DNA of 39,278 bases. It comes from a virus. Taxonomy: Duplodnaviria; Heunggongvirae; Uroviricota; Caudoviricetes. A program made the position numbers and the translations under genes. The notes below the pieces were generated by a model that worked only from the letters and a program-made list of their open reading frames with translations, had not been told where the DNA came from and ran no database searches. The stretch's first letter is position 1, and every line of letters starts with the position of its first letter. Below are positions 1,758-32,900 of this stretch, piece by piece. The stretch spans positions 1 to 39,278 of IMG/VR virus record IMGVR_UViG_2524614843_000001, one strand, 5' to 3'.

Positions 1758-1764
1758 GCTATTT

Positions 1765-2853: not shown

Positions 2854-3040
2854 GGCGTGCGCTCCGTTTTTACGACGGTTTCTTAAACCGTCGCAATACC
2901 GCGAATTTACTAGGTTTGACTGGTTCGGTGTAGTAACAAGTGTAGTGAATGGCTATTTCACCAACAGGTTAGGGTGGTTTTTCAGCCATGAAACGTGTCT
3001 TTGCACGCTTGGAATAATTTTATGGCTGATTTTTCATCAA

Positions 3041-3107
3041 TAGATACTATCTTAGCAAGATAGATAGATAGAAAGCCAGAAAGAAAGGGAAGGGGATAGA
3101 TAGAAAG
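3041..3107. repeat. AGAT/AGAA tetramer repeats upstream of parA; candidate parS/operator
   Basis: AGATAGATAGATAGAAAG (3058-3075), AGAAAGAAAG (3078-3087), GATAGATAGAAAG (3095-3107). Type Ib par centromeres usually lie upstream of the operon. Confidence 0.45.
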
Positions 3108-3179
3108 AACTTCAAACCCTCATCTATTCGTGGTCTAATTCAGCAACACCTATAAACACACCGAACTAAGGGAACCGTC

Positions 3180-4264: not shown

Positions 4265-4266
4265 CC

Positions 4267-4284
4267 GTACCTCAAATCACGATA
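4267..4284 (-). repeat. Single inverted iteron upstream of rep
   Basis: Minus strand TATCGTGATTTGAGGTAC, 17/18 identical to the array copy at 5423-5440. Confidence 0.85.
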
Positions 4285-4313
4285 AGGGCGGTGCAGACCG
4301 CCCTGTTTAATTT
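4285..4313 (+). terminator. Intrinsic terminator-like hairpin between the par operon and rep
   Basis: AGGGCGGT-GCAG-ACCGCCCT followed by GTTTAATTT. Confidence 0.65.
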
Positions 4314-12908: not shown

Positions 12909-14046
12909 AGAAGAGCTCCACGATAATCCCAGCCGCAACGGCTGTAGTGTCAGTGTGCGGCGCCGCTGCGGTCATTGCCCAAGCGAGGCCAGATGGCAAA
13001 CGAATACCGGAGGCTGGTACGTAGTCGTCGAGTGATAGGCAGTCGTTAGCCTTCACGCGAACCGTCATGATGGGTTGATCTGTCCCCACCGTAGGCACCG
13101 CGGCTTTGTTGTAAATCTTCAAGTAAACGTCCGCGGCACTGGTGTTGTTGATCACGCCACCGCCCAAGTTGGTTGCCGAGTTTTTCGTAATCGTTGGATT
13201 GGTTGTTGCTGCGGTAATTGCACGGCTGAATGTGGTGTAGCCGCCCGCGCCAGAGTCCGGACGTGGGATGGCGGACACTGCTGATACCGCACTAACCAAC
13301 GAGATCGGAATCGATTCGCTAAGCGAGCCGCCGCCCGTATTGGTCAGATCGACCGGCATTTCGTTAATGTCGGTAATGTTGATCGAAAAAACACGAAGCT
13401 CTGTGGCAGAGGCCGGCGCCGTCGGGCCATTTACCGCGCGAATCCGCAGCATCAATTGCTCATCAGGGTCCGGAATGCGCATCGTGCGCACGGCAAAGGT
13501 GTTGCGACCTGCTGCCGAGTTGGTATCACGCTGCGCAAAGCGAACCTCGTCAGGGTAAAGCTGCATGATGTATTGTCGGCCAGCAGCCACCCGATCACTA
13601 ATTGCGTACCAAGTGCCGGTGTTTTCCCACGCTGGGAAGCGGTTTTTATTGAAGCTCAGCGCGCGGCATTGAGCTGCCGTGCTGCCGCCAGGGAAAAGGA
13701 ACGCGACGCACACTTGGCCTGCTGAGTCGATTAGCTCGAAAGACACATCGCAGTTAGCAGGGTTGGCTTGACCAAATTGAGCCGAAATAACGATCTGAGC
13801 CGGCGCTGCAAACTGCACCGGTAGCAGCATTTGGCACACTGCATTGGGCGTGGTGCCGGTGTTCAAAATGGCACGATCTGTTGCGATCAACGGCTGAACC
13901 GTAGAGCCGCTGGTATCGTATCGATCTGCGAGCTCGGCCATCCCCCAGCCAAATTCATCACGAAATTTCATTCGCACGCCGGAGATCAGCCGCGCACCTT
14001 CTGGCGTGTTGCCGAAGCCGACCTGGTAAGAACCTTTTTTATCCAT
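12901..14046 (-). CDS. Putative virion structural or decoration protein
   Basis: 381 aa, beta-rich and Thr/Ala-rich; C-terminal TAATTNPT...YLKIYNKAAVPTVGTD...DTTAVAAG module of a kind seen in phage hypothetical proteins; AGGTGG RBS. Confidence 0.6.
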   Translation of the reverse strand: MDKKGSYQVGFGNTPEGARLISGVRMKFRDEFGWGMAELADRYDTSGSTVQPLIATDRAILNTGTTPNAVCQMLLPVQFAAPAQIVISAQFGQANPANCDVSFELIDSAGQVCVAFLFPGGSTAAQCRALSFNKNRFPAWENTGTWYAISDRVAAGRQYIMQLYPDEVRFAQRDTNSAAGRNTFAVRTMRIPDPDEQLMLRIRAVNGPTAPASATELRVFSINITDINEMPVDLTNTGGGSLSESIPISLVSAVSAVSAIPRPDSGAGGYTTFSRAITAATTNPTITKNSATNLGGGVINNTSAADVYLKIYNKAAVPTVGTDQPIMTVRVKANDCLSLDDYVPASGIRLPSGLAWAMTAAAPHTDTTAVAAGIIVELFYV

Positions 14047-14054
14047 AATCCACC

Positions 14055-14072
14055 TAAGTCAATGGTTACTTA
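14055..14072. promoter_or_regulatory. Dyad site O6
   Basis: Minus strand TAAGTAA-ccat-TGACTTA; contains the upstream stop codon and abuts the SD of the next gene. Confidence 0.8.
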
Positions 14073-14512
14073 TTAACATCGACGTAATCAACGCCGAAAC
14101 CCGAGAAAATATCGATCTCGCTGGCCAGCTCAACCGCCTCTTTGGCTGATTTGCCAAGCTTCATTGCCGCCATTGCAAAATCACCGCCTGAGCCAATTGC
14201 GAAAGGCGCTTTAATTTCGATCGGTACCAGCTTTTCGCCATACAAGTAGCTCTCGCCGGTTTGCGTATTGATCACGATGGCCTGCAGATCGTCGATCTCA
14301 GGCGTTTCACCGCCGAACAGCAATTCGTTATCGGCAAACGAATCCTCAAGCCAGCTTGCGAAAAGTTTGAGGTCATCAGCTGTGCCGGCACCGGCCATCA
14401 GCAGCTTTCCATCCCCAATAACAAACAGCTTCTTAATCTCGAATCGCTGGTTGCCATAAGTCACCTGACGGTCTGCAGCTAAGGTTTTGCCGTCCCATGC
14501 TACGGTTGTCAT
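14066..14512 (-). CDS. Ntn-hydrolase fold protein, HslV/proteasome-beta-like peptidase
   Basis: N-terminal (M)TTVAW...LAAD nucleophile motif, conserved K (IKKL), GAG, and AIGSGG as in HslV. Confidence 0.75.
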   Translation of the reverse strand: MTTVAWDGKTLAADRQVTYGNQRFEIKKLFVIGDGKLLMAGAGTADDLKLFASWLEDSFADNELLFGGETPEIDDLQAIVINTQTGESYLYGEKLVPIEIKAPFAIGSGGDFAMAAMKLGKSAKEAVELASEIDIFSGFGVDYVDVNK

Positions 14513-14524
14513 TTGGAGCGCTCC

Positions 14525-15106
14525 CTATTGTGTGATTTCGTTAATTTCAATTGCATCAAGCAGTGCGTTTTGACTGTCGGCTAGTTCGTGATACTGGCTG
14601 GCGAGCTCGATGAGTTTGTCCTCAACGGCTGCTCTGGAAACGGTTGAACACTCTTCGGGCGCTTTTTCAGTGCTTCGCTCACGATCACGCGGCTCTCGGT
14701 TTTGGAGGGCGTCGTTGAGCAGCCGGACAGTCCGAAGGTTGAGATAATCGCCACAGCCATCAGGCTCAGCAGCGATAGCGACCGCGGAAGCAATGCTGGC
14801 CGGCAGTCGTTGTGGTTTGCTGATTTCACGGTGAATCTCCTTAATGTGGTCGAAACGCTCTGCTCGGGCGCTGGCTGATGCAACCAGGCTCGCTACAATG
14901 CGGTCATTGCCATGAAAAACAATCGCCTGGTCAGCGATTTCGTTCATGATCTCTTTGAGCTGCTTTTGGGCCTCTTTCTTTTCCCATTGCTCGTTCACGT
15001 CTTGCCTAGCATTCCGGTCGATCATGAAGGCCAGTGCCGCAATAGCTGCTGCAACCGCCACGATCTTTATTAGCCAGGCATAGGCTTTCAATTTCTCGAA
15101 CATCAT
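14525..15106 (-). CDS. i-spanin (Rz-like)
   Basis: Single N-terminal TM helix, coiled-coil periplasmic part, carries a nested lipoprotein ORF. Confidence 0.75.
   Translation of the reverse strand: MMFEKLKAYAWLIKIVAVAAAIAALAFMIDRNARQDVNEQWEKKEAQKQLKEIMNEIADQAIVFHGNDRIVASLVASASARAERFDHIKEIHREISKPQRLPASIASAVAIAAEPDGCGDYLNLRTVRLLNDALQNREPRDRERSTEKAPEECSTVSRAAVEDKLIELASQYHELADSQNALLDAIEINEITQ
14581..14829 (-). CDS. o-spanin (Rz1-like lipoprotein) fully embedded in the i-spanin gene
   Basis: GTG at 14829 with AAGGAG 7 nt upstream; hydrophobic stretch ending in lipobox LSG-C; Pro-rich mature part; alternative frame inside Rz. Confidence 0.8.
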   Translation of the reverse strand: MKSANHNDCRPALLPRSLSLLSLMAVAIISTFGLSGCSTTPSKTESRVIVSEALKKRPKSVQPFPEQPLRTNSSSSPASITN

Positions 15107-15366
15107 CCCTCCTTGCTCGATTGAACCGGTTCAGCCGGCCGAGACCGGCTGCCAAACCAGAACCCCACAATTACCCCGTTCATTGGCCCGACCGTTTGCA
15201 CGTAGTCCTTGATCGAGATCGCTCCGGTAATCGCTGCCCATGCGCAAATCACGTTGAACAGTACGCAGATGATCAGCGTCAGTACCGGTCTGGTAACGCG
15301 ATTGAATGCTGTGGCCACGTCCAAATCGCGCAGCGCGCGCAGCAGCTTAATCAGTCCATCAATCAT
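15103..15366 (-). CDS. Holin-like membrane protein (GTA-holin-type VxRP...GFWFGSR) (start revised to 15366)
   Basis: Two hydrophobic segments, VTRP and GFWFGSR motifs; GGAGG RBS; overlaps both neighbours. Confidence 0.6.
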   Translation of the reverse strand: MIDGLIKLLRALRDLDVATAFNRVTRPVLTLIICVLFNVICAWAAITGAISIKDYVQTVGPMNGVIVGFWFGSRSRPAEPVQSSKEG

Positions 15367-15685
15367 TTTTCTGACCTCCGGTAAATCGGCTGAGCATTTG
15401 CTCAATCACCTGTGGGCCTAAATAGGCAATTGCAGAAATAAAGCCGGCTCTAACCTGCTCATTCTCAATGCCAACCACAATCGACAGGCCGTTTGCGAAA
15501 ATACCCATTACTACTGCCACGACCAATTCCAGCGCCAATAGCTTTGAGAAGAATCGCTTGCGTCTGCCGGTTCTCACCTGCTCGGTGTGAAATAGCAATC
15601 TGCCGGCCATACCAAACAAGATCGCCACACCGAATGTTTTGATCGCCGTAATGGCCGCAGACCAATCCAAACCAAATTCCTTCAT
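15359..15685 (-). CDS. LydA-like holin (start revised to 15685)
   Basis: GMAGRLLFH...ELVVAVVMG...ISAIAYLGP with 3 TM segments, matching the LydA-holin pattern; AGGGAGG RBS. Confidence 0.7.
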   Translation of the reverse strand: MKEFGLDWSAAITAIKTFGVAILFGMAGRLLFHTEQVRTGRRKRFFSKLLALELVVAVVMGIFANGLSIVVGIENEQVRAGFISAIAYLGPQVIEQMLSRFTGGQKND

Positions 15686-15734
15686 AAAGAAACCCTCCCT
15701 ACCTGAAATCGTACCGATCACAGGTAGGGGAGTA

Positions 15735-15752
15735 CAAGTCATCACTGACTTA
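15735..15752. promoter_or_regulatory. Dyad site O7
   Basis: Minus strand TAAGTCA-gtga-TGACTTG; its first TAA is the stop codon of the amidase gene. Confidence 0.85.
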
Positions 15753-16217
15753 CTTATTGGCCACAACAAAATGCGGCTGTGAGCGGGTCATGTCCCATAG
15801 ATCTTGGGGTGAAACTGAGCCAGTTTTGACCTTCATTTCATGACCCCCAGCGATTAGCATTGCCGCGACCAATTCCGAGCAAAACCATTTGTTTGGCTCT
15901 TGCCAATTTCGCCCTTTAAATAGCCACCCAATCAAACCGGTCCAGTCGTATTTCTTTCCAATTTGAGCGATCAGAAAGTCGGTAGCCCTTTCTGGATTTG
16001 GCACCAAGCGATCTATCACGACACCCACTGCCACCGTCGAACCAGGCGGCTCTCTATCCAGATCATTCACAATGACGCCTTCGCCTGGCTCCGCCCCGAT
16101 GATGAGTTCTGAATTGATCAGCAAGACCTCAACATGACTCCACTCAGAGCGGGTAAATAACCGAACGATTCTGCTATGCAGCCCATTGTTCCGGCTGAAT
16201 ATCAAAGCCATTCGCAT
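15750..16217 (-). CDS. Permuted papain-like NlpC/P60 amidase (YaeF/YiiX type)
   Basis: His before Cys order: WSHV...GKKYDW...WFCSELV. Confidence 0.85.
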   Translation of the reverse strand: MRMALIFSRNNGLHSRIVRLFTRSEWSHVEVLLINSELIIGAEPGEGVIVNDLDREPPGSTVAVGVVIDRLVPNPERATDFLIAQIGKKYDWTGLIGWLFKGRNWQEPNKWFCSELVAAMLIAGGHEMKVKTGSVSPQDLWDMTRSQPHFVVANK

Positions 16218-16222
16218 ATCGC

Positions 16223-16618
16223 TTAGCCCTCGAGATTCAGTGGTGGCTCGGTCGGCAGAGCAACTTGATTGCCGTTCTGCACTTGCTCATCGCGCTGTTT
16301 GGCCAAATGCAGGTACAGCGAGTGCAGTGCCGTATAAACCTCGGCATACTTCATTTTCGCCCCGGTCGAGCGGCCGGTGCTCACATCGATCACCTCAAAT
16401 TCGGCGTTCATATCTGCTACCGGCTCAACGATCACGCCTGGCAATGGCTGGGTCATCGTCTGACCATTGATTGAAACCGCCTTCTCTTCGTAAATTTCCA
16501 GAATGGGCGTTTGGTTGTACGGGTTGTTGATCACAACGCGGTGCGCCCGCTGCCAAATACGCCCAATCGCCGTCTGTTCGTTGTAATTTTGGCTACCTGA
16601 ACTTGCTGTAGTAGTCAT
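16223..16618 (-). CDS. Hypothetical phage protein (tail-fibre-linked type)
   Basis: AAGGAG RBS; WQRAHRVVINNP...YTALHSLYLHLA pattern. Confidence 0.75.
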   Translation of the reverse strand: MTTTASSGSQNYNEQTAIGRIWQRAHRVVINNPYNQTPILEIYEEKAVSINGQTMTQPLPGVIVEPVADMNAEFEVIDVSTGRSTGAKMKYAEVYTALHSLYLHLAKQRDEQVQNGNQVALPTEPPLNLEG

Positions 16619-16641
16619 TGGTATCTACTCCTTTTTAATAG

Positions 16642-16659
16642 TTAGTAAGCGGTGAGTTA
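16642..16659. promoter_or_regulatory. Dyad site O8
   Basis: Minus strand TAACTCA-ccgc-TTACTAA, intergenic. Confidence 0.6.
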
Positions 16660-16666
16660 ATATACA

Positions 16667-17839
16667 TCATCGAGTCATCCATGTCTTGCGTCGGCCAATG
16701 AGCTCGTCGATCAGTCCGGTCAGACTGTGGCCAAAGGTAATGAGCTCGACCGTCCATGTTGCCGCAATACCTTTCACGCGCTCTTTGAGGCTTAGGTTTT
16801 GAACGGTGGTCATTGTCAGGCCTTCAAGCTGCAGGAAAAACAGGAAGATCACCCAAGGGGCTAGTGTCGGCGAAAGCAGGCCGGCAACTCGCCAAAGCGG
16901 CGCAAACACTAGCGGCAGCCAGGGAAGCCAAAGCAGCAAGCCCTTCACCTTGTTGATACCAACTGAAACCTTGAAGGCTTCTGCGTTGCCGCGCGACCAC
17001 CGGCGTCGTTGTCTGCACAGCCTGCTCAGGCTTTGAGGCGCCTCGGTCCATGCGAACGCCTCTGCAGAATATTCGACCTTCCCACCCTGCATGATTGCCA
17101 GCGTCGTCCAGCAAACATCCTCCACGAGCCAGTCCTTGTCCCATGCCCCTAAACGGCGCAAAGCCCAGCCTGCGTGCATACACAGCGCACCTGACATAAC
17201 TCGCACACGCCCAATGCGACCCATTGCAGTTTTGGTCAATGGGTAGCCTCCTTGATGCTCATGGTGCTGGCAGGCGCCTAAGAAGGTGTGACGCTGATCT
17301 TCACGAATCATCACCGCGCCAGATACGCCGGCCAGTTCTGGCCGCTCAGCCATCTTGGTTGCCATCTTGAGAATGGCGTTTTTACTCAAGATCGTATCGC
17401 CATCCATGACAACCACCGCTGGAATGTCTTTTGGCAGCATGGCAAGGCCGATATTCAGAGGAATAGCCTTGTTTCCGGAGTTGGTCTGGTTCCGATGATG
17501 AGTCACTCGAATGCCGCGGTGAATGAGCTCATCGCGCCAGCGATCAATGATTACGTCTGAGCCGTCTTTTGAGCCATCGTCCACTACAGCGATGATCAGC
17601 TCTACGCCGTGGCGCATTACGCTCTGTTCGCTAAGGCTTCGGAAAGCAGCCTCCAGTCCTGCCGCTTCGTTGTAAACCGGCAGGATGACGCCGATCTGGC
17701 TAGGTAGTTTGACGCCGGCTGCTGGTCGGTCCGATTCCTTCCGGAAGTAGACGATCAGCATCAGCGCCAAAGTGACTGCGATTTCGGCTGCAATCGAGGT
17801 TGCAGCCAGCCAAAAAAGGATGTTTGCGAGTTCGCTCAT
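16667..17839 (-). CDS. Membrane-embedded processive GT2 glycosyltransferase, PgaC/IcaA-like
   Basis: PVYNE, VDDGSKD, NKA, MDGD, VED and QRRRW (D,D,D,QxxRW); one N-terminal and several C-terminal hydrophobic segments; VMSGA...LVED...AWTEAPQSLSRLCRQRRRWSRG aligns with recalled PgaC blocks. Confidence 0.88.
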   Translation of the reverse strand: MSELANILFWLAATSIAAEIAVTLALMLIVYFRKESDRPAAGVKLPSQIGVILPVYNEAAGLEAAFRSLSEQSVMRHGVELIIAVVDDGSKDGSDVIIDRWRDELIHRGIRVTHHRNQTNSGNKAIPLNIGLAMLPKDIPAVVVMDGDTILSKNAILKMATKMAERPELAGVSGAVMIREDQRHTFLGACQHHEHQGGYPLTKTAMGRIGRVRVMSGALCMHAGWALRRLGAWDKDWLVEDVCWTTLAIMQGGKVEYSAEAFAWTEAPQSLSRLCRQRRRWSRGNAEAFKVSVGINKVKGLLLWLPWLPLVFAPLWRVAGLLSPTLAPWVIFLFFLQLEGLTMTTVQNLSLKERVKGIAATWTVELITFGHSLTGLIDELIGRRKTWMTR

Positions 17840-19221
17840 GCTTTGTACCCGATGGATTCGTTGAAGATTGCCAGTCTCGACTCTATTAGCTCAGTCACCG
17901 ATGACTGATTTAATTGGCCAGATTGTTGAAGCTTGCGCAGCATCGTCATGACTTCTGGCGCACCACGGAGCTCGGCCGAAACGTCCCGATTCATGGCGGC
18001 ACAAGCCTTCTCCCTCGCCTGGCTCTTTTTGAGCACGGCAAATAGCGGCGACCAGAGTGCAGCGAGTGTCTCGTCTGACGATTTGCCTTTGGCCAATTCC
18101 AGCGCCATTGCTCTGAAATCATTGCCAATCAGAGGGATTCTGTCGCGCCAACCGTATTCTTGGCTGAAATAGAAGTCGTCCCGCGATACGCCAAAGTCCA
18201 GCAACTCGGTACCTGTTTTTAGCCACTCCACCCACTTTTCAGTGAAAGCAGCGGTCTCGACCGGTTTTTTGGCATACAGGCTTTGAATTTCGGCTTCCGA
18301 CAGGCCGATGATCTGCAGTGATGCTCGTTCACGCGCCTGTTTAGCCCACGATTCGACTTGCGACTGAATACGCTGATAGCCAGTCGAATAATCCGCGGTA
18401 CTCTTCCAAGGCGCCGCGCGCTGCAGCAGTACAGTCGCAGCCTGGTTGCCGGCCTCGAGGAGCTCATCCCAAAATGCCACACCCATACTTGAGGCCGAGG
18501 TGTTCCGGAAGTCCGGTTTTACTGACATTGAGCCCGTGTCGAAGATCTGGCCGGCCACGTCAAAGTTATCAATAGGCGAGCCGCCAATGCTGATTCTTCG
18601 CGCCCAAAGCGTCGCTACGCTGGCCAGAGTGCGCTTTACCAAGTCCTCAATCATTGAGTAACGATCAACGCTGGGCTCATAACCTAGAAAGGTCGGCGCT
18701 TGTTCATAGTTGATCTGATTCAGGTGGCTAATGCGCAGAGGAAAATCACGGACCAGCAGTGCGGCATTGTCGGCAAACTCGAATTCCGGCTTGGCTAGCG
18801 CCTGAGCTTTGCGCTCTGGCGACAACTCGAAAAACGCAGGGTGAGTTGGTACCGACTTTTCAAGCAGTGCAAAGCCCTTCACGCGGATACCTCGGCCGAA
18901 AAGTCGATAGAGCATTTCCAGATACAGCGCTTCGATTACCGCGTCTTTCAATGACAGCAGGCCTGTCCCGTATGTACCCGCATTTTCATTGGCAAATGGC
19001 GTCTTTCCGGCGCCTTTGACGCTTAACCCATTGAAGTAAACCGCCCTCCCCGAGCCACCAATGCCCCAGCTGCAATAGCAGTCTGCCCAGGCGGGCATGT
19101 TCGTCTGATCGGATTCGGTGGAGATCAGGTATTGGTCAATTTGAAAGCCTTGTTGCAGCCACAGCGCCTGGCCTTTAACTTTGCCGACTTTTACATCGGT
19201 CATTTTGATCAGATCGATCAT
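17836..19221 (-). CDS. SelO/YdiU (MchC/MceJ-like) pseudokinase-fold nucleotidyltransferase
   Basis: GSGRA (vs GDGRG), SVKGAGKTPF (vs HLKGAGLTPY), IEAL, ALLVR...LRISHL (vs AMLMR...HLRFGHF), PIDNFDVAGQIFDTG (vs NTDNMSLLGLTLDYG); comparisons are from recalled YdiU motifs. Confidence 0.72.
   Translation of the reverse strand: MIDLIKMTDVKVGKVKGQALWLQQGFQIDQYLISTESDQTNMPAWADCYCSWGIGGSGRAVYFNGLSVKGAGKTPFANENAGTYGTGLLSLKDAVIEALYLEMLYRLFGRGIRVKGFALLEKSVPTHPAFFELSPERKAQALAKPEFEFADNAALLVRDFPLRISHLNQINYEQAPTFLGYEPSVDRYSMIEDLVKRTLASVATLWARRISIGGSPIDNFDVAGQIFDTGSMSVKPDFRNTSASSMGVAFWDELLEAGNQAATVLLQRAAPWKSTADYSTGYQRIQSQVESWAKQARERASLQIIGLSEAEIQSLYAKKPVETAAFTEKWVEWLKTGTELLDFGVSRDDFYFSQEYGWRDRIPLIGNDFRAMALELAKGKSSDETLAALWSPLFAVLKKSQAREKACAAMNRDVSAELRGAPEVMTMLRKLQQSGQLNQSSVTELIESRLAIFNESIGYKA
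17891..17908. promoter_or_regulatory. Dyad site O9, inside the SelO-like 3' end, ~52 nt upstream of the PgaC-like start
   Basis: TCAGTCA-ccga-TGACTGA, a perfectly symmetric variant. Confidence 0.7.
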
Positions 19222-19976
19222 AGAAAATCACCTTGTCTGTGTTTGATCTGGTTGAAAATAAAGTCCCGCCCATACGTTTCGATCAGGCCTGAGCGGCACT
19301 CCTCTGCCCGATGAAGGAAGCGAGCACCGGTATGCGTCGTCAGCGTGATGTTTGTGTCATGGCGCCGATAGACGCCGATAACCTGCTTTGAGTAAGCGAC
19401 GTTCCTAGCGTGTAGGGCGAACTCGAGAAAGAGGCTGTAATCAGCCGCACTGAACCGACGTACAAAGGGAGAGCATTTGGGCATAACGCTTTTGCGGAAT
19501 ATGGCCGACAGCGTAAATGGGCTATCACCCGTTCTGAACATATAGGGGAACGGGTCACTAAAGCCCCAGCATCGACTGCTGCAGGGCAGATAACAGCCGG
19601 CAGACTGCATGTAGAAGATTGCCGACCCAAAGAAGGCATCGTGACCTTCGCAGCCTTCCACCATGTAGCGCAGCGAATGCTCGCTCGCCCAATAGTCATC
19701 GCCATCCAAAAAGCACACCAGCTCTGTGTCGGCCATATTCCATGCCATTTCCATCAGCGCCGGATAACCCAGCCGAGACTCAGACTCAATGATCTGCAAG
19801 CGATCTGCGGGGAGTGCTTTTCTGACCACCTCTACCGATTCATCCTCTGACGAATCGTCGATAAAAAGCACCTTCCAATCTTGGAAGGTCTGTTTGGCGA
19901 TAGACTCGGCAAACTGCTTGAGAAAGCGGGCGTTGTTCCGCGATACGCAGATGATTGTGACAATCGGTTTCATCAT
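19218..19976 (-). CDS. Soluble GT2 (GT-A fold) glycosyltransferase
   Basis: IICVSRN, FIDDSSED, FLDGDDYW (DxD), AADY and YRRH motifs; no TM segment. Confidence 0.9.
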   Translation of the reverse strand: MMKPIVTIICVSRNNARFLKQFAESIAKQTFQDWKVLFIDDSSEDESVEVVRKALPADRLQIIESESRLGYPALMEMAWNMADTELVCFLDGDDYWASEHSLRYMVEGCEGHDAFFGSAIFYMQSAGCYLPCSSRCWGFSDPFPYMFRTGDSPFTLSAIFRKSVMPKCSPFVRRFSAADYSLFLEFALHARNVAYSKQVIGVYRRHDTNITLTTHTGARFLHRAEECRSGLIETYGRDFIFNQIKHRQGDFL

Positions 19977-20578
19977 CCCACCATCGGAAAGCGGTAGCTG
20001 GCCAGCCCTTGCGCGTCGCCCTGCCGGTACATCTCATCGACGCGGCGCTTCTGACTACTAATGAGGTCAAAGGCTGCGGCAACCTGCAGCTTTGCTCCTT
20101 GTTGATGCCGAATCAGATCTGCCTTGGTCTCTTCTGATGTACCGAGCGGGAAGTCAGAAACAGAAAGCGACTGCGCCATGAAGGTCATGAATAGCTCGGC
20201 ATTCATCATGCTCATTAGCTGCCCATTGATTTGCGCTACAGCCTGTCTGTAGTTGATTTCCAGCGTCGGGCTCATCCCTTCTCTCGAGCCCGCATAGTCA
20301 TACAGCTCTTCCTGTGTCACCGACCCATACAAAGAGGCGCCCACTTGAAGATTGGCGAGCTCATCGAGCGCATTGGCTCGACGCACGCCTGCGATCTCTT
20401 GCTGGTGGCTCATTTGGCGCTGAATATCGATCGTGCGCTCAAACATGCCGATCAAGTCCAACTCCGGATAGGCCACTTTCATGCCGACAAAATCAATCAT
20501 GACGGTGCGCCCGTCATTTGAGCGCACCTCCAATAGACCAGTCGCCATGTCCTTTTTGACGATTTGAATTTCAAGCAT
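19973..20578 (-). CDS. Hypothetical helical protein (possible fibre chaperone or cassette substrate/partner)
   Basis: Overlaps both neighbours (TGATG and ATGA); no recognised motif. Confidence 0.7.
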   Translation of the reverse strand: MLEIQIVKKDMATGLLEVRSNDGRTVMIDFVGMKVAYPELDLIGMFERTIDIQRQMSHQQEIAGVRRANALDELANLQVGASLYGSVTQEELYDYAGSREGMSPTLEINYRQAVAQINGQLMSMMNAELFMTFMAQSLSVSDFPLGTSEETKADLIRHQQGAKLQVAAAFDLISSQKRRVDEMYRQGDAQGLASYRFPMVG

Positions 20579-21075
20579 CAGTAATACTGCCTTGCCCAGC
20601 CAGAAGCTACGACATAGCCGCCAAAACGCCCTTCTACGGTTGCGACGATGCGAACATCGACATATCCATAGCTTGCAGGGGTGTAATACTCGCTGGCCGT
20701 GTAGCTCAGTCTGAAAATTGAAGAAATGGCGCCGCTCCAGTTGCCGGCACCGTCCAGATAAACGCCAATTGGCCCGTTAGAAACGAGTGAGAACTGATTG
20801 CCGTTGGCGTATTCGGCTCGGATAGTGACGTATGAATTCGGGTGTCCGCCCGAAATCCATGCACTGACCTGGCGATTCACACCACCACTACCAGAAACGC
20901 TATGGCCGCAGCCAGAAGGCGGCAAAGGTTTCCCGTAGAAGGCATCCATGCCATAAGCGCCACTAGGAGCTTTGGCCAGAGAGCGCACGTCACCATCGCC
21001 GAATGAAGTCTGCTGACCCGCCCGCCCGAGCTGGGCGGACACGTCGTACAGGCTGATTGGACCCGAGCTCTGCAT
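20578..21075 (-). CDS. Putative tail-fibre tip adhesin (gp38-like N-terminal attachment domain)
   Basis: SSGPISLYDV...LGR...VRSLA..PSGAYGMDAFYGK N-terminus followed by a Gly/Tyr/Ser-rich beta region; directly behind the chaperone-bearing fibre. Confidence 0.6.
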   Translation of the reverse strand: MQSSGPISLYDVSAQLGRAGQQTSFGDGDVRSLAKAPSGAYGMDAFYGKPLPPSGCGHSVSGSGGVNRQVSAWISGGHPNSYVTIRAEYANGNQFSLVSNGPIGVYLDGAGNWSGAISSIFRLSYTASEYYTPASYGYVDVRIVATVEGRFGGYVVASGWARQYY

Positions 21076-22265
21076 TACTGACCTCGCGCTTCAAGAGTCC
21101 GAACTCGCTCATTCAGCGACTTCACCGCCTCAATCAGCACCGGAACCAACTTGGTGTAGTCAACGCCCATGTATTCAGTCCGGTCGAGCTCGGTATCGCT
21201 TGGCTTAGTCCGCACAATGGCCTCTGGCATCACCCGCTTAACCTTTTGTGCGATCACGCCATAGTCTCGCTTCCCTGCTTTCAAGCGAGTGCGGTGGATG
21301 CCTTTGCGCCAGTTAAATGTCACCCCTTCAATCTGATCGATGATCTTCCAAGGGTCAGAAATCTTGGCGACATTGGTTTTTAGGCGGGCATCTGAGTAGG
21401 CAACCACGTTACCTGCAGCCACAATGCTGCTGTCGCAGTAGAACTGCTTGCCGCCATATACGCGAACATAGGTTGAGTCGGTCATCCAGATACCGCCGCC
21501 ATAGCTCTGCGAATACCAGCCCACGTTACCGTTTGAGCGATACCAACCGTTGTTGTAAACCTCGCTGAGCGTATCGCCGCTCTTGCCTAGCTTTGTGTTC
21601 GGGTCGAAGTTGCTGCTCAACCAGAACGTACCTAGATCAGAAGAGTCCACTTGCGCTTTAAGCGCTGAGCCACTCCACCCTAGATAAATTTTGTTGGCGT
21701 TTTGACCTGCGCCACCGCCTTGCTGAACCGGTGTGAAGCCAAGCGCCGGCTGGTAGTTGCTCGGGTTAAAGTTGGCGGTGGTCCACATGGTTGCCCAACT
21801 GCCCCAGCCACCTGCGGCATCGTTACCACTGCGCAACGCAAGCGTTCCATCATTGGCAAATCCAAGCTCGAAGGCTCGCCCACCGGTTGCGTCACCCCAG
21901 CCGCGGATACCCATGATTTTCGCCAGGCCTGATGAGCCAAGCCCAGCTACGCTGCTGTTTTTCAGGTGGAACTGAACCTGAGCATCGTTGTAGGTGTCCG
22001 GAGTCGTGGCTTGAGTGCGAGAGTCCAGTACCGCCACTTCGTTCAGGTTGAAGTCGGCGATTTTTGTCCATGTGACCGGTGACAGGACTTCGAGGATATA
22101 GAGTGCCTTCAAGTCCGTCCGGTAGCAGGGCATACCCAGCTGCAAATTCGCAGTCGGGAATGCTGTGCCTGAGTTCAGTGAAATGGCGGTTTTGTCATTA
22201 TCCAGCAGTAGTTTCAAACTGGCCGCAAGCGCCGTGTTGTCGGTAATCTCGGTATAACTTTGCAT
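21075..22265 (-). CDS. Tail fibre with C-terminal peptidase S74 intramolecular chaperone
   Basis: LGFTPVQQGGG, YNNGWYRSNG...GWY...YGGGIWM fibre motifs; AYS/DARLK autocleavage site; GVIAQ...VDYTKLVPVLIEAVK. Confidence 0.9.
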   Translation of the reverse strand: MQSYTEITDNTALAASLKLLLDNDKTAISLNSGTAFPTANLQLGMPCYRTDLKALYILEVLSPVTWTKIADFNLNEVAVLDSRTQATTPDTYNDAQVQFHLKNSSVAGLGSSGLAKIMGIRGWGDATGGRAFELGFANDGTLALRSGNDAAGGWGSWATMWTTANFNPSNYQPALGFTPVQQGGGAGQNANKIYLGWSGSALKAQVDSSDLGTFWLSSNFDPNTKLGKSGDTLSEVYNNGWYRSNGNVGWYSQSYGGGIWMTDSTYVRVYGGKQFYCDSSIVAAGNVVAYSDARLKTNVAKISDPWKIIDQIEGVTFNWRKGIHRTRLKAGKRDYGVIAQKVKRVMPEAIVRTKPSDTELDRTEYMGVDYTKLVPVLIEAVKSLNERVRTLEARGQ

Positions 22266-22283
22266 TTAATCACCAATGACTAA
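22266..22283. promoter_or_regulatory. Dyad site O10
   Basis: Minus strand TTAGTCA-ttgg-TGATTAA; contains the upstream TAG stop and the GGTGA SD of the fibre gene. Confidence 0.65.
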
Positions 22284-23632
22284 TAGCCATGTGCAGCCCA
22301 TGAGGCGGTGCCTGTCACATATTGACCGTTACTTGGATTTTTCAGCTTCAAGGTGAAGCCGAACTTGTCGTCGTTGCTGATTTCAGGAATCACGACCCCT
22401 GTTGCCGATTGCACGCGAATGACAATCTCAGGCTTGATCATGAAAACCCTGTTGAATGCGATATAAAGTCCAATTCCTGCATTGGTAATGACCGCTGTGC
22501 CGCGATCAATAATGTCCGGTACATCGACCGACGTTTCTATTTTTTTGACTCGAGCCAAGCTGCCTTGATTCGATGTAAATGCCAGCCTAAAGGTGGCGTT
22601 TTGATACTCGTATTCGCCTGGTATGAAGTCGCGGAAGCCGCCAAGACCAGGGATAAAGCCATCTTCAAGAATGGCCATAAACTGATCTTCGCTAAGCTGA
22701 TCGCTGATCAGCATGTCTGAAACCGTCGCATTGCCTTTGCGGCGCCATTCTTCCAACATTGCAAAGGCTTCCTGCTTGTTGGTGCCAAAACGTCGCGCGC
22801 CCAGCTCGATGATTTGCATCACCTCCGCAAACGTGCGAGTGAATCGGACGCTGCGCCCTTGCTGTTCAGCAATTGCAATCTGCTCGCTGGCGTTTTTGCC
22901 ATACCGCAGAGTGTCATTGCCGCCGATTACCGCAATCGATTCAGAGATCGGTTTGCGCGGATATTTACTAGCTAGCTCTAACACCGCAATCGATTCGGCC
23001 AGTCTTTTCTTGAAGTTCAGACCGTCTGACTCTGCGATATTTAAAGCCTCGGTTTCATTGAGGCCAAAGCGATTCACGCTCGAATCGGAAATGCCAAAAG
23101 TGCTATTTCCTCTCCGCGCCTCTCTTTTCCCGCAGATCTCAGCGAAACCAATGCTTTCCAAGATCGATAGCCGGAAAGCGATGTTGTCGATGTAGGTATC
23201 AACAATGGCCAGCGCTTCCCTAATGGCCATGCCTGAGCGCTTAATAGGTAGTGCATCTGCGACACCTAGCAGCTCCGCCAGCGCCAAGCCAATTCGTGAC
23301 GACTCTGCATCGGTAACGCCAAGTGTTTCCGCCAGCGCGCGGACATACCTTGCGGCAGGGCGTGCCTGGTCGGCGACAGAAAGCGATTCTCCGACCGCCT
23401 TGCCAAAGCGATCTTGCAAATTGTCTGTCACCGCCAAGATTTCCATCACACTTTTGCCGAAACGCTCGGTCTGCATATCGGCAAACGCCAAGTCGTCATT
23501 GTTGTTGACGATGAACGTCCGTGCAGCGGCCTCCTGCCATGTCTCTCGGTCTCCCTGCAGGGAGTTCCAAGCGAACATGGCGGTTTGCCACTTGTAGGGC
23601 GTTGACGCCGTATTGGAGACCGTAACCGGCAT
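22280..23632 (-). CDS. Tail/virion structural protein with ~12 degenerate 18-20 aa repeats
   Basis: Repeats such as ESLSVAD, ETLGVTD, ELLGVAD, EALAIVD, ESIGFAE, EALNIAE and ESIAVLE; located between J and the fibre gene. Confidence 0.75.
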   Translation of the reverse strand: MPVTVSNTASTPYKWQTAMFAWNSLQGDRETWQEAAARTFIVNNNDDLAFADMQTERFGKSVMEILAVTDNLQDRFGKAVGESLSVADQARPAARYVRALAETLGVTDAESSRIGLALAELLGVADALPIKRSGMAIREALAIVDTYIDNIAFRLSILESIGFAEICGKREARRGNSTFGISDSSVNRFGLNETEALNIAESDGLNFKKRLAESIAVLELASKYPRKPISESIAVIGGNDTLRYGKNASEQIAIAEQQGRSVRFTRTFAEVMQIIELGARRFGTNKQEAFAMLEEWRRKGNATVSDMLISDQLSEDQFMAILEDGFIPGLGGFRDFIPGEYEYQNATFRLAFTSNQGSLARVKKIETSVDVPDIIDRGTAVITNAGIGLYIAFNRVFMIKPEIVIRVQSATGVVIPEISNDDKFGFTLKLKNPSNGQYVTGTASWAAHGY

Positions 23633-29945: not shown

Positions 29946-32900
29946 TTATGAGCTCATTGCCGATTTCAACCCGTCGCGGAATGCGCCAGGCTTAGATGCC
30001 TCAGTCAGCACCACATCCATCACATAGCTTCTGCCGTCGAAGCGCATATTGCCCTTCTCGGCATTCATGCTGTTGGTGGTCTGGTTAATGACGTTCACCG
30101 TGACCTGTGGCGCCTGAGAGCCTGCATTTCCATTCACACGAACACCCAGCCGGCCATTCCCGTCGCGCGACAGCGGCATGATGGCTTCCGGACCAGCCTC
30201 GCCCATCAAGCCCATGTTGAAGTAAGTTGGAGTGTTGACCAGTGCATTGGTGAACGCTCCACCTTTGGCGAACTGCTTGATTGGCTGGCCACCGATGAAG
30301 GCGTTACCCTTGGCGCTGGCAAGGAAGCCGCCGAATAGGTTGCCCAATCCCTGAACCGCCCAATCGGTAAAGCCTGACAGCGCCTTCCGCATGGCGATTT
30401 TGGCAATGTCCGACAGGATAGACTCGGTGAGCTTTCCGAACTCGAACTTGCCGGCCTTGGCCATGTCGATGAATGAATCGATTGTTCGATCAGTCCAGTC
30501 GATCACCCCTTTCTTCATCGCATCGGTGGTGTCCTCCCAATCTCGGCGGATTTTGGCAAATGGATTGCCTGCCTCTTCGGCCATCTGCTTGATTTGGTCA
30601 CTGATCGTATTGACCGCCTCGCGCATCTGATCTGCCTGCTCTTGGCTCAGACCAGGTATTTTTAGCCGGATGCTCAGTGCTTCTTGCCATGATTCCAGTT
30701 CGCGCTGCAGACGTTGCCGTTGCCGCTCAGAATCGGTCATCAGACCGTCGGCATTGCCATTGATCTGATTGCGCGCACGCTCCATAAACTCGCCAAAATC
30801 AGCCTTGGCTGCAGATTCCTCTGCTTGCTTGGCAAACTTGTCGAAGTCGGCCTGAGCGCTGCCCAGATCAATCTTCTTGAGCTCCGCAATTGCCTCTTCC
30901 AGCTTGGTAGAGCGCAGTTTGATCTTGCCGGTCGCTTCCGTTGTTCGCTCGTCAATTTGCCGCGCCTCAAGACCGTATTGATTGCCAAGATCTCGAATGC
31001 GCTCAATGGCGCGCTCTTGCATCTTGCCAAACTCGGTACCCGCTTTGATCTCTGCCAATTTGGCGATCTGAGCCTCGGTGAGCTTGGCGTCCTTCTCGTC
31101 CTTCTGGAAATAGCGAGTGGTGTCATTCAGCGTTTTATACCGCTGGAAATACTTGGCCTTGAGCTCATCCAGCGTCATCAGGGCGCTTTCGGCCTGCTCA
31201 TAGCTCTTGCCGGCCGCGACCGCATCAGCAGCTTCCCGAATCAGCTTTTCGCGCTCTTCCTCGAAAGCAGACTTCTCAAGTGATTTTGGTTTTGGCGGCT
31301 TTTTCGTGCCTGCTAGCGAAGTGGTTGGCTTGGAAAAGTCGATGGCGTCCGTCTTTTGAAGCGGCTTCATCTTCTCTTCGACCTGCTCGATGGCAGATTG
31401 AATCTTGGCCGTCTCTCGCGCGTTACCCTTGGCGCTTTCCAGTCGTTTGGCTAAACCGTCTCTGAGTGTGGTGTAAGCCTGCAGCTGCTCGGCATTCGAC
31501 TGCTCAATGAACTTCTGCAGCGCCTGAGCACGCTTCTTCTCGTCCCCATCGCCCTTTTGAGCGTAGAGCCGGTTGAACTCGACTTGATCTTTGCTTTTCT
31601 TGGCTTCAATGCGCGCGACTTCTTCACGAACCAGACTGAACCCCGCCTCTTGATCACGCTGCTTTTGCAGGTTTTCAGAGATGAGCTTTTCAGTACCGCG
31701 AGCGTCTTTAAGTGCTGTTTCTGCCTTGTCCCATGCTGCCTTGAGGCCATTCTGCTCTTTCTGATACTCGGCTCGCAGTTTATCGAACTCTAACTTGGCC
31801 TTCCGGTACTCTTCGGAGTCCTTCTTCATTTTCGCCATGCGAGCTTCTGCAAGAGCAAGCGATCTGTCCTGTCTTTCTTTCGTTACGAGGTAACTAGCTC
31901 TAGCAGCCTGAACGTCTTTGAACTTGTCTCCAATTTGCCCTTTTGCTTTATCCAGCTCTTCTTGCGTTGCAATGCCACCGCTAGCGACTCTCATTGCCGC
32001 ACGAGTTGCTGCAGCCGCACGATCTGCCGCGGATTCCATCATGGCCAGATAGGTGACTACCCCCAGGATTGCGGTGATTGCCAACCCTGCAGGTCCGCCG
32101 AGCGCGCCAAGCACAGCGCTAAGGCCGCGTCCAGCGATTGTGGCGGCAGTTGTGGCGGCAGCCCATGTGCGCGATACTGCGGCGGCCTGTACGACTTGGC
32201 GTTCGTGCCGTGCAATTTGTTGATTCACCTGAACAAGCCGCTGCTGCATTGGGCCAATCGCACCGGAAAAGCTGCGTCCAACACTGTCGTATTCACGGCG
32301 AAGGGTGGCGAATGAGGCTTTGGTTTCCGCTGCAGCCCGAGAAGCCGCCGCGGCCATTGCTACGTTCGCGCTCTTGGTTTGCGCTTCCAGTACATTAACC
32401 TCGGCTCGCAACGCCTTGCTTTCGCGCTGCAGCTCGGCCGCGCGCTGCTTAGTTACTGCAACCAGCTGACCATTGATAATCTCTCCTACCACACGATTAT
32501 TCGTGCCAAAGTAGACCCGAGATAGCTGCTGTTGAATATCACGAATACGCTGTTGAGCCGCAGCAACTTCAATCCCACGTTTCACTTCGGCTTCTTTGAT
32601 CGCCATAGCGATACGCTGCTGCGAGGCCGTTTGCTCAGCCTGCATCCGTGCCATTATTGAGGCGCGAGCTGACTCAAGTTCTGCCTTCTGCGCTGCAATG
32701 CCGGCTTCCAGTACCTGCTTCTGATTCGCCAAAGCAGCCGCTTGTTGCTGGAATTGCTCGCCAGCCACGCTATTCAGGCGCATCCGTCCTAGACGCTGTG
32801 TGGCATCGTAGAGGCCTAAAATGGAACCTCTCGTCGCAGCCGCTCGTTCGCCGAGCGAACGCATTGCGTCGCCAACTGCGCTCGACACCTTCCAGAGCAC

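What the first reader, a model, noticed from the sequence alone, without database searches (positions are those of the whole stretch)
17836..19221. Phage-encoded SelO-family pseudokinase with its catalytic residues apparently intact
Seen: G-S-G-R-A loop, VKGAG Lys, helix-C Glu (IEAL), two Arg (LVRD, LRIS) and a DN...D metal/catalytic segment (IDNFDVAGQIFDTG). The HGVMN positions diverge to IGGSP. Known: SelO/YdiU bind ATP in a flipped orientation and AMPylate proteins using these residues. Inference: it is an active adenylyltransferase that either activates a substrate for the neighbouring GTs or AMPylates host proteins (takeover or anti-defence). The diverged catalytic loop suggests a new subfamily.
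Basis: partly seen in the sequence, partly recalled or inferred. Interest (0 to 1): 0.75.

Follow-up and report, generated by a model that had tools for sequence, protein, structure and literature searches.

The report
Phage SelO-like enzyme paired with glycan synthase
A phage-plasmid carries, in its tail-fibre operon, a very divergent but apparently active relative of the SelO/MchC "flipped-ATP" enzymes. It is nearly always found beside a membrane sugar-polymerising enzyme, which suggests an undescribed two-enzyme system that tags a protein (perhaps the tail fibre) or a surface sugar.

Summary
An AlphaFold model (pLDDT 89.6) matches only SelO/YdiU over its full length (Z about 23.5; next fold 10.7). 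The ATP and metal residues of SelO are kept: K69, E97, R158, R163, D218-N219 and D228. HGVMN is replaced by IGGSP.

It is not a YdiU copy. It belongs to a rare, unannotated family: 11 clusters among 1.8 billion representatives. That family branches inside the MchC/MceJ (microcin-tailoring) side of the superfamily.

New here:
- In 8 of 11 genomic contexts the gene abuts an orthologous NodC/PgaC-like processive GT2.
- In 7 of 11 it lies among phage tail or tail-fibre genes.
- The same GT2 type sits beside annotated SelO-family/MchD-like genes in Vibrionaceae microcin-type plasmid clusters.

In the window, six genes from the tail fibre to the GT2 are translationally coupled.

Best reading, with function inferred and not shown: an ATP-dependent adenylylating enzyme that works with the GT2 in glycoconjugation, possibly of tail-fibre proteins. 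Rivals are receptor masking and host-protein NMPylation.

The scan has not met this family on other DNA; it noted only MchC/MchD pairs elsewhere. It is a new variant of a known kind.

The parts
17836..19221 (-). SelO-superfamily (MchC/MceJ-side) kinase-fold enzyme, 461 aa (P0001)
   Evidence: ORF. AF2 model pLDDT 89.6, pTM 0.90. Foldseek top 9 hits are all YdiU/SelO (E 5e-11 to 4e-9, TM 0.56-0.60). VIA-align Z 23.4-23.7 over about 380 residues. Family profile against 6EAC, E 2.8e-5.
19000..19056 (-). Residues 56-74: Gly-rich loop GSGRA and beta3 Lys in VKGAGKT (K69 = SelO K113)
   Evidence: G58, R59, K69, G70, G72 and T74 are invariant in the family.
18727..18762 (-). Residues 154-165: LLVRDFPLRISH with R158 and R163 (= SelO R176 and R183, which contact the gamma-phosphate)
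   Evidence: YdiU alignment. R in 12/12 family members, 48-49/49 MchC-like and 6/6 YdiU. Roles from PMC8097203.
18502..18597 (-). Residues 209-240: catalytic-loop and DFG-equivalent segment. R209, IGGSP in place of HGVMN, D218-N219, G224, D228, and the family-specific PDFRN motif
   Evidence: The N219 to D228 spacing of 9 residues is the same as SelO N253 to D262.
16667..17839 (-). Conserved partner: processive-type GT2, 390 aa (NodC/PgaC/HAS-like), overlapping the SelO-like stop by 4 nt
   Evidence: Pfam GT2 families. TIGR03937 PgaC_IcaA 6e-36 (below the equivalog cut-off) and NodC 1e-13. Hyaluronan synthase 1e-7. TM segments, DGD146 and QRRRW277. D88, DxD146-148, ED240-241 and QRxRW invariant in 7 orthologues. 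Adjacent to the SelO-like gene in 8/11 contexts.
19218..19976 (-). Second, soluble GT2 (252 aa, TuaG/EpsE-like), overlapping the SelO-like start by 4 nt. Not conserved in the other loci
   Evidence: Absent from the other 10 contexts.
19973..20578 (-). orf201, unknown function, translationally coupled
   Evidence: No family found. Atlas gave no usable hit. Overlaps shown.
20578..21075 (-). orf165, small phage protein, possibly a Gp38-type tail-fibre-tip adhesin (a lead only)
   Evidence: phrog_26817 matches the N-terminus. Atlas structure TM 0.59 to a viral cluster and 0.39-0.40 to Gly_rich_2/GP38 clusters. In L005 a true Gp38_N protein occupies the equivalent position.
21075..22265 (-). Tail fibre (396 aa) with a C-terminal Peptidase_S74 intramolecular chaperone; first gene of the coupled six-gene block
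   Evidence: Its C-terminal part is 40% identical to the fibre next to the SelO-like gene in L032 and 32% identical to that in L005.

Best explanation
P0001 is a catalytically competent member of a rare, mostly phage-borne subfamily on the MchC/MceJ side of the SelO kinase-fold superfamily.

Shown:
- It has the SelO fold.
- It keeps the residues that in SelO hold ATP in the flipped orientation: K69-E97 and R158/R163 on the gamma-phosphate, and N219/D228 on the metal and alpha/beta-phosphates.
- It forms a conserved two-gene module with a processive, membrane-embedded GT2.
- It recurs among tail-fibre genes.

Inferred: it transfers AMP from ATP, releasing PPi, to activate an acceptor that becomes joined to the sugar made by the GT2. 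This follows MceIJ, which link the C-terminal carboxylate of microcin E492 to a glucose of its siderophore moiety.

Most speculative step: the client is a tail-fibre-associated protein encoded just upstream. That would make this a post-translational glycoconjugation system for the phage's receptor-binding apparatus, expressed late with the fibre genes.
For: Fold:
- Foldseek's top 9 hits are all YdiU/SelO, then a gap of seven orders of magnitude in E-value to MAP kinases.
- Z is 23.4-23.7 against 10.7 for the next fold.
- All 30 listed AFDB Swiss-Prot hits (all that the output shows) are YdiU.
- The ESM Atlas independently points to the MchC and YdiU clusters.

Residues: with roles from PMC8097203.

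Clade:
- phmmer reaches MchC-like proteins and not canonical YdiU.
- 17 of 46 of those hits match Pfam SelO, and 3 of 46 are fused to HlyC.
- Their plasmid relatives are annotated MchC or SelO family and sit next to MchD-like acyltransferases.
- In the tree, YdiU is split off by an SH-aLRT 100 branch, and the phage family plus 4 relatives form a clade at 94.

Partnership with the GT2:
- It is adjacent in the window, L003, L004, L005, L007, L013, L014 and L015.
- The only full-length plasmid matches of the GT2 among 72,556 records are the GT2s beside SelO-family genes in Photobacterium and Vibrio microcin-type clusters.
- The Motilimonas GT2 is 54.6% identical to the Photobacterium one although their SelO-like partners are only about 20-25% identical (20% in the MAFFT alignment; 25% in the BLAST local alignment). 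The two SelO types therefore appear interchangeable partners.

Tail link:
- Tail or tail-fibre genes lie near the gene in 7 of 11 contexts.
- Homologous S74-type fibre C-termini occur in the window, L005 and L032.

Operon:
- The junction overlaps are -1, -1, -4, -4 and -4 nt, and GC3 is uniform.
- There is no internal promoter or terminator signal.

A homologous radical SAM enzyme recurs in L007, L013 and L032. That fits a protein or peptide modification system.
Against: - No enzymatic activity, substrate or product is known for any member.
- The MceI/MchD-type acyltransferase that MceJ needs is not detectable near any phage-family member.
- No microcin-like precursor peptide is present.
- Three tail-associated loci (L006, L031, L032) lack the GT2, and three GT2-bearing loci (L007, L013, L015) show no tail genes. 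The two associations are therefore separable.
- A membrane synthase exports its product, whereas the SelO-like protein has no signal peptide or TM segment. The topology of any conjugation is unclear.
- Genes next to tail fibres are also a common site for accessory cargo.
- A mirror-tree test found no significant co-evolution of the pair (r 0.20, p 0.16).
- D218 is not conserved in 3 of 12 family members or in the MchC-like group.
Confidence: 0.45

Rival explanations
1. Receptor masking or superinfection exclusion. The GT2 polymerises a surface or periplasmic glycan that hides the receptor recognised by the adjacent tail fibre, in the way T5 Llp is encoded next to its receptor-binding protein gene (own knowledge). 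The SelO-like enzyme regulates the synthase by NMPylation or decorates the glycan. Kinase-fold enzymes acting on sugar hydroxyls, such as WbdD and WaaP, are precedents (own knowledge).
For: The GT2 has all the hallmarks of a processive, membrane-translocating synthase. The module is self-contained and occurs in varied contexts, including a bacterial RHS locus and a DNA-metabolism region. Its position next to receptor-binding genes fits functions that co-vary with the receptor.
Against: The cassette is translationally coupled to late tail-fibre genes, with no promoter of its own detected. Three tail-associated family members have no GT2 at all. The kinship to peptide-tailoring MchC and the recurrence of a radical SAM enzyme point to a protein or peptide client.
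Confidence: 0.2
2. Stand-alone protein NMPylase. Like YdiU/SelO, it AMPylates or UMPylates host (or phage) proteins for takeover or counter-defence, and the GT2 neighbourhood is incidental.
For: The SelO catalytic constellation is intact, including D218, which canonical YdiU keeps and the MchC-like group mostly lacks. SelO/YdiU are proven AMPylases or UMPylases (PMC8097203). The host has its own ydiU, so the phage copy is not redundant with it.
Against: Adjacency to an orthologous GT2 in 8 of 11 contexts, across about 25-30% identity divergence, is hard to call incidental. The gene branches with MchC-like proteins, not YdiU. It sits in a late structural operon rather than among early genes. 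PADLOC and PHROGs gave no match.
Confidence: 0.13
3. Small-molecule nucleotide chemistry. The enzyme hydrolyses NAD+, as recently reported for SelO, or makes an unusual nucleotide-activated sugar for the GT2 by transferring AMP to a sugar phosphate.
For: SelO NADase activity is summarised in PMC13391479. YdiU-NAD complexes are among the top structural matches (9jym, 9jyn, 9l29). Making a donor substrate would explain an obligate GT2 partnership.
Against: No member of the superfamily is known to make NDP-sugars. Ordinary UDP-sugars are available in the host. No residue-level evidence separates this reading from AMP transfer to protein.
Confidence: 0.07
4. Non-catalytic scaffold or regulatory subunit of the synthase (a true pseudoenzyme).
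For: The HGV catalytic-loop motif is lost. Dudkiewicz et al. proposed that MchC proteins may be accessory regulators of the acyltransferase (PMC3281104).
Against: The nucleotide, metal and catalytic residues are invariant across a family only about 25-30% identical overall. That argues for selection on catalysis.
Confidence: 0.05

Closest known systems
MchC / MceJ (with MchD / MceI): class IIb siderophore-microcin maturation enzymes of E. coli and K. pneumoniae
   Same: Same side of the SelO superfamily. They share R209, which YdiU lacks, and share loss of the HGV motif (PMC3281104). They also work in clusters that contain a glycosyltransferase, where they attach a sugar-bearing moiety to a peptide's C-terminal carboxylate (PMC7680869).
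   Different: No HlyC-type acyltransferase partner, no double-glycine precursor peptide and no exporter. The partner here is a processive GT2, not an IroB-like C-glycosyltransferase. The setting is phage tail-fibre genes. Identity to a named Salmonella MchC is too low for BLAST to detect: the all-against-all BLAST at E <= 0.01 returned no hit for the window protein against it, and only three other family members (L004, L014, L015) hit it at 21-31% over partial lengths. D218 is retained here but is Ser in most MchC-like proteins.
Vibrionaceae plasmid clusters (Photobacterium damselae pdp3 NZ_CP150465.1; Vibrio alginolyticus NZ_CP099958.1): MchD-like / SelO-family / GT2 / Gly-rich peptide / radical SAM / HlyD / C39-ABC
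   Same: The same SelO-like plus 390-aa GT2 pairing. The GT2 is orthologous: 28% identity over the full length to the window's, and 54.6% to the Motilimonas family member's partner. A radical SAM gene is also present.
   Different: These are bacteriocin-type clusters with an acyltransferase, a 95-aa double-glycine-leader peptide and an exporter. Their SelO-like protein is only 21% identical to P0001 over 248 residues. To my knowledge they are uncharacterised, and literature searches found nothing.
SelO / YdiU protein adenylyltransferase (PDB 6EAC, 6K20, 6III, 6LNA; Pfam PF02696)
   Same: Whole-length fold (Z about 23.5). Same residues: beta3 Lys, alphaC Glu, two gamma-phosphate Arg, Asp-Asn, and the DFG-equivalent Asp with identical N-to-D spacing.
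   Different: 14-18% identity. The Pfam score is below threshold. HGVMN is replaced by IGGSP. The Gly-loop insertion is shorter. There is no C-terminal redox Cys/Sec motif. It is separated from YdiU by a long, fully supported branch. The host keeps its own canonical ydiU.
NiRAN domain of nidovirus nsp12 (the other virus-borne SelO-like nucleotidyltransferase)
   Same: A virus-encoded kinase-like domain related to SelO that transfers NMP or RNA to a protein (PMC8863163, listed).
   Different: It belongs to an RNA virus of animals and is fused to the polymerase. No sequence or context relationship was tested or seen here, so the analogy is conceptual only.

Membership tests
SelO/YdiU (Pfam PF02696) | Pfam model match above the gathering score | tested here: not met
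   12.2 bits against a cut-off of 22.8, E 0.077, residues 66-107 only. 4 of 11 family members match at E<=1, best 5.7e-5. The PF02696 search of the genome finds only the host ydiU.
SelO/YdiU (Pfam PF02696) | SelO-type kinase-like fold over the whole protein | tested here: met
   Z 23.4-23.7, rmsd 4.0-4.3 A, 372-381 residues aligned, model residues 1-456. Foldseek E 5e-11 to 4e-9.
SelO/YdiU (Pfam PF02696) | Flipped-ATP pocket residues: K113-E136 pair, R176 and R183 | tested here: met
   K69, E97, R158 and R163 align to them and are conserved in the family. Roles from PMC8097203.
SelO/YdiU (Pfam PF02696) | Metal and catalytic residues N253 and D262 | tested here: met
   N219 and D228, with the same 9-residue spacing, invariant in 12/12.
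SelO/YdiU (Pfam PF02696) | HGV(M)N catalytic-loop motif | tested here: not met
   IGGSP occupies these columns. The motif is also variable in MchC proteins (PMC3281104).
SelO/YdiU (Pfam PF02696) | Protein AMPylation or UMPylation activity | not testable with these tools
   Needs biochemistry.
MchC/MceJ microcin-tailoring proteins | Phylogenetic placement with named MchC-like proteins rather than YdiU | tested here: met
   In the quick IQ-TREE, YdiU is split off at SH-aLRT 100. The phage family forms its own clade (94) inside the MchC-like assemblage. The sampling is biased towards hits of the query.
MchC/MceJ microcin-tailoring proteins | Adjacent HlyC-family acyltransferase (MchD/MceI) | tested here: not met
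   An HMM built from three MchD-like proteins finds none among the 74 neighbour proteins of nine of the 11 loci (L031 and L032 were not in that search). Pfam finds none among the 10 window neighbours or the 10 L004-L007 neighbours scanned, and the precomputed Pfam columns of all locus tables, L031 and L032 included, list no HlyC.
MchC/MceJ microcin-tailoring proteins | Double-glycine-leader precursor peptide and C39-ABC/HlyD exporter in the cluster | tested here: not met
   No Gly-rich small ORF in window 14000-23000 or in nine of the related loci (L003 was not scanned). No exporter in the contexts.
Processive GT2 synthases (NodC/PgaC/HAS/BcsA type), for the partner gene | D, DxD, (T)ED and QxxRW motifs plus transmembrane segments | tested here: met
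   D88, D146xD148, E240-D241 and Q277-R-R-R-W281 are invariant in 7 orthologues. TM-like segments at 4-34 and about 318-338. The PgaC_IcaA hit, 6e-36, is below the equivalog cut-off, so this is not PgaC itself.
Known anti-phage defence systems (PADLOC) | Match to any PADLOC model | tested here: not met
   No match for the SelO-like protein, either GT2 or seven neighbours.

The most novel reading that the evidence does not exclude
Phages use a SelO-fold enzyme to adenylylate a carboxylate or hydroxyl of their own receptor-binding proteins, for example the new C-terminus left at the fibre tip after the S74 chaperone cuts itself off. A glycan made by the partner GT2 is then ligated there. The result would be glycan-tipped tail fibres: a new virion modification in phages of Gram-negative bacteria and a new chemistry for the SelO superfamily. 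The same enzyme pair would make glycan-tagged 'Trojan horse' microcins in Vibrionaceae.
Probability: 0.15. Interest if true: 0.85.

Novelty: new variant of a known kind. Interest (0 to 1): 0.62.

Why it matters
SelO-type enzymes are a young field. AMPylation was found in 2018, followed by UMPylation, the RNAylation done by NiRAN, and NAD+ hydrolysis. The chemistry of the MchC/MceJ branch has never been explained structurally.

This finding defines a catalytically intact, phage-borne subfamily with a fixed partner (a processive GT2) and a recurrent address (tail-fibre operons). It also links that subfamily to uncharacterised microcin-type clusters that use the same enzyme pair.

That gives a tractable two- to six-gene system for asking what a SelO-fold enzyme does with a glycan synthase. 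If tail fibres are the client, it would reveal a new way for phages to tune receptor recognition. The family is rare, so its ecological weight is probably small. The value is mechanistic.

Tried and rejected
No relatives found:
- Direct sequence searches were blank: PHROGs, PDB phmmer, NCBIfam, the word-indexed 5.8-billion search with the protein and with the family alignment, and tblastn and megablast against 50,697 phage records.
- Pattern scans of IMG/VR and the GTDB genomes with a sub-alignment confirmed no relatives. The first attempt failed for lack of conserved columns.
- In 301 genomes of the host's order, only G000 has the close form.

Ideas tested and rejected:
- PADLOC gave no match, so this is not a known defence system.
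- A hidden MchD/HlyC partner among the small neighbours was not found.
- A hidden microcin precursor was not found.
- Co-evolution of the SelO-like and GT2 pair by mirror tree was not significant within the phage family (r 0.20, permutation p 0.16). The significance in the full set is driven by one close pair.
- orf131 is an orphan, and orf201 has no structural lead.
- A host ydiU duplicate is rejected: the host has a separate canonical ydiU at G000:C4, and the phage gene fails the Pfam model.

Technical notes:
- Two 'YdiU' rows in the tree (L029, L030) were probably the wrong ORFs, judged by their very long branches, and were ignored.
- tblastn of the GT2 at E<=1e-20 returned nothing because large-database E-values were about 1e-21 to 1e-19. 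It was repeated at 1e-5.

Full report
**The gene.** The finding's coordinates enclose one minus-strand ORF, ATG at 19221 to TGA at 17836, of 461 aa (P0001). Its start overlaps the stop of a 252-aa GT2 by 4 nt, and its stop overlaps the start of a 390-aa GT2 by 4 nt. Upstream, orf201, orf165 and a 396-aa tail fibre are joined by overlaps of 4, 1 and 1 nt, so six genes form one translationally coupled block with uniform GC and GC3. A consensus scan found no promoter-like or convincing terminator-like site inside the block. It found 1 promoter-like site in 10.5 kb against 7.9 expected, and that site lies after the last gene.

**The element.** The window is a whole 39-kb contig of a 3.43-Mb bacterial assembly. 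The same sequence lies on contigs of 80-103 kb in other assemblies. It carries a siphovirus tail module (major tail protein, tape measure, M/L/K/I/J-like proteins), tail fibres, a holin, an HslV-like peptidase and replication genes. It also carries an integrase, ParA and TrfA. It is therefore a phage, probably a phage-plasmid. Its J protein is about 31% identical to those of the 112-kb Pseudomonas 'nickie' group.

**The observation.** Direct family searches are nearly blank:
- Pfam SelO scores only 12.2 bits against a cut-off of 22.8.
- PHROGs, the PDB by sequence, NCBIfam and PADLOC give nothing.

An exhaustive HMMER search of 1.84 billion representatives found ten full-length relatives at about 30% identity (P0002-P0011) and 46 weaker hits. 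A profile of the eleven sequences hits P. syringae SelO 6EAC at E 2.8e-5 and E. coli/Salmonella YdiU structures at 4e-3 to 1.5e-2. The motifs line up residue for residue.

**The fold.** An AlphaFold2 model built on 35 sequences has pLDDT 89.6 and pTM 0.90.
- Foldseek's nine best PDB chains are all YdiU/SelO (E 5e-11 to 4e-9, TM 0.56-0.60, full length). MAP kinases follow at E about 2e-3 and TM 0.25.
- VIA-align gives Z 23.4-23.7 (rmsd about 4 A, about 380 residues) for SelO/YdiU. The next fold scores 10.7 (NIS siderophore synthetases AcsD/SbnC/IucA), and ordinary kinases score about 9.5.
- All 30 listed AFDB Swiss-Prot hits (all that the output shows) are YdiU.
- The ESM Atlas independently names the MchC and YdiU clusters.

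**Active site.** The 6EAC chain numbering is the paper numbering plus one. The alignments map K69 to K113, E97 to E136, R158 to R176, R163 to R183, D218 to D252, N219 to N253 and D228 to D262. According to the review PMC8097203:
- K113, stabilised by E136, together with R176 and R183, holds the buried gamma-phosphate of the flipped ATP.
- N253 and D262 bind the metal.
- D262 also acts on the acceptor hydroxyl.

In a 67-sequence alignment, K69, R158, R163, N219, G224 and D228 are invariant in the 12 family members. The same positions are conserved in 47-49 of 49 MchC-like and 6 of 6 YdiU sequences. E97 is E in 10 members and D in 2. R209 is Arg in 12/12 family members and 35/49 MchC-like proteins but Gly in YdiU. 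D218 is kept in 9/12 family members and in YdiU but is Ser in 42/49 MchC-like proteins. A PDFRN motif (D237, R239, N240) is specific to the family. Such conservation at 25-30% overall identity argues for a working active site.

**Where it belongs.**
- Of the 46 weaker hits, 17 match Pfam SelO and 3 are fused to an HlyC-type acyltransferase domain.
- Their plasmid relatives are annotated 'MchC protein' (next to an MchD-like acyltransferase, HlyD and MchF) or 'SelO family protein'.
- In a quick maximum-likelihood tree, canonical YdiU, including the host's own copy, is separated from everything else by a long branch with SH-aLRT 100. The phage family plus four further proteins (P0018, P0057, P0022, P0042) form a clade at 94.
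- The host has a normal ydiU elsewhere.
- The family is rare. It has eleven 50%-identity clusters, mostly single metagenomic contigs. One NCBI member is a 'hypothetical protein' of Motilimonas cestriensis.
- There are no hits in 50,697 phage records, IMG/VR or the GTDB pattern scans. Only the window's own genome carries the close form among 301 genomes of its order.

**Context, the main new result.** I read eleven contexts and compared all neighbours by BLAST.

(i) In eight contexts (window, L003, L004, L005, L007, L013, L014, L015) the gene directly abuts an orthologous 383-456-aa GT2 at 26-39% identity (one closer pair, L013 with L017, is 54.6%).
- This GT2 has an N-terminal and C-terminal transmembrane segments.
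- It has the invariant D, DxD, ED and QRxRW motifs of processive synthases.
- Its best named relatives are PgaC/IcaA (6e-36, far below the equivalog cut-off), NodC and hyaluronan synthase.

(ii) Among 72,556 plasmids, the only full-length matches of this GT2 are two GT2 genes lying immediately after 'SelO family protein' genes in Photobacterium damselae pdp3 and a Vibrio alginolyticus plasmid.
- Both clusters read: MchD-like acyltransferase, SelO-family protein, GT2, a 95-aa Gly-rich peptide with a double-glycine leader, radical SAM, HlyD, C39-ABC exporter. That is a microcin-type biosynthetic cluster.
- The Motilimonas GT2 is 54.6% identical to the Photobacterium one, although the adjoining SelO-like proteins are only about 20-25% identical (20% in the MAFFT alignment; 25% in the BLAST local alignment). 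The GT2 therefore works with either SelO-like type.

(iii) In seven contexts (window, L004, L005, L006, L014, L031, L032) the gene lies among tail or tail-fibre genes.
- The window's fibre C-terminus with its S74 chaperone is 40% identical to the fibre in L032 and 32% identical to the fibre in L005.
- In L005 a Gp38_N adhesin gene directly precedes the SelO-like gene.
- The window's orf165 has weak structural resemblance to such adhesins.

(iv) A homologous radical SAM enzyme recurs in L007, L013 and L032.

(v) No HlyC-like partner and no Gly-rich precursor peptide accompany any phage-family member examined.

**Interpretation.** The fold, the conserved nucleotide-binding and catalytic residues, the clade, the GT2 partnership and the tail-fibre association are shown. 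The chemistry is inferred.

The one characterised function on this side of the superfamily is MceIJ/MchCD. [quoted passage not shown] From my own recollection of Nolan and Walsh, the reaction needs ATP and Mg. A flipped-ATP enzyme would naturally adenylylate the carboxylate for attack by a sugar hydroxyl.

The phage family keeps that catalytic core and keeps a sugar-making partner, and it sits in operons with receptor-binding proteins. My best reading is therefore an ATP-dependent glycoconjugation module whose client may be a tail-fibre-associated protein.

This reading has real weaknesses:
- the missing acyltransferase;
- the unclear topology between a cytoplasmic enzyme and an exporting synthase;
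- the separability of the GT2 and tail associations;
- a non-significant mirror-tree test.

The rivals are receptor masking by a surface glycan with the SelO-like protein as regulator or decorator; a free-standing host-protein NMPylase; NAD+ or NDP-sugar chemistry (SelO NADase: PMC13391479); and a non-catalytic subunit.

**Novelty.** Full-text searches found no paper linking SelO or MchC proteins to phages or to GT2 synthases. The scan's own index holds this stretch only. Elsewhere it holds only classical or orphan MchC/MchD pairs. I rate it a new variant of a known kind: a new subfamily with a new partner and a new setting, but a familiar fold and probably familiar AMP-transfer chemistry.

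Noticed in passing
L017:4214-10687 (Photobacterium damselae plasmid pdp3, NZ_CP150465.1) and L018:5049-13170 (Vibrio alginolyticus plasmid NZ_CP099958.1): A conserved microcin-type cluster: MchD-like acyltransferase, SelO-family protein, processive-type GT2, a 95-aa Gly-rich peptide with a double-glycine leader, radical SAM, HlyD and a C39-ABC exporter. It looks like a class IIb-like microcin tagged with a glycan instead of a siderophore. I found no literature on it.
   Followed up: partly
L013:1-11288 (Motilimonas cestriensis JAIMJA010000031.1): The only NCBI member of the family (WP_233054797.1) is not in a phage. It follows a 4844-aa RHS/YD-shell protein and a 180-aa membrane protein, and is followed by the GT2 and a 519-aa radical SAM protein.
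   Followed up: partly
L007:6891-7625: Two genes downstream of a family member lies a 244-aa protein that is extremely rich in Ser, Thr, Trp and Tyr repeats and ends in a Gly run. It is a conceivable modification substrate.
   Followed up: no
window 14066-16217 (-): The lysis region has an HslV-like peptidase (phrog_1040), two holin-like or TM proteins and a permuted papain-like C92 (YaeF/YiiX) protein, but no classical endolysin family. The tape measure protein (29946-33914) has an endolysin-annotated PHROG match at residues 55-322.
   Followed up: no
window 1213-5324: A Cro/CI-type HTH, a tyrosine integrase, ParA and a TrfA-family replication initiator sit together. The element has both integration and plasmid-maintenance genes.
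   Followed up: no
G000:C4:267850-269187: The host carries its own canonical ydiU/selO (PF02696, E 1e-133), unrelated in origin to the phage gene.
   Followed up: yes
model of window 17836-19221: After SelO/YdiU, the next structural neighbours are NIS siderophore synthetases (AcsD, SbnC, IucA; Z 9.5-10.7). From my own knowledge, these enzymes adenylate carboxylates. They score marginally above protein kinases, and the margin is too small to interpret.
   Followed up: no
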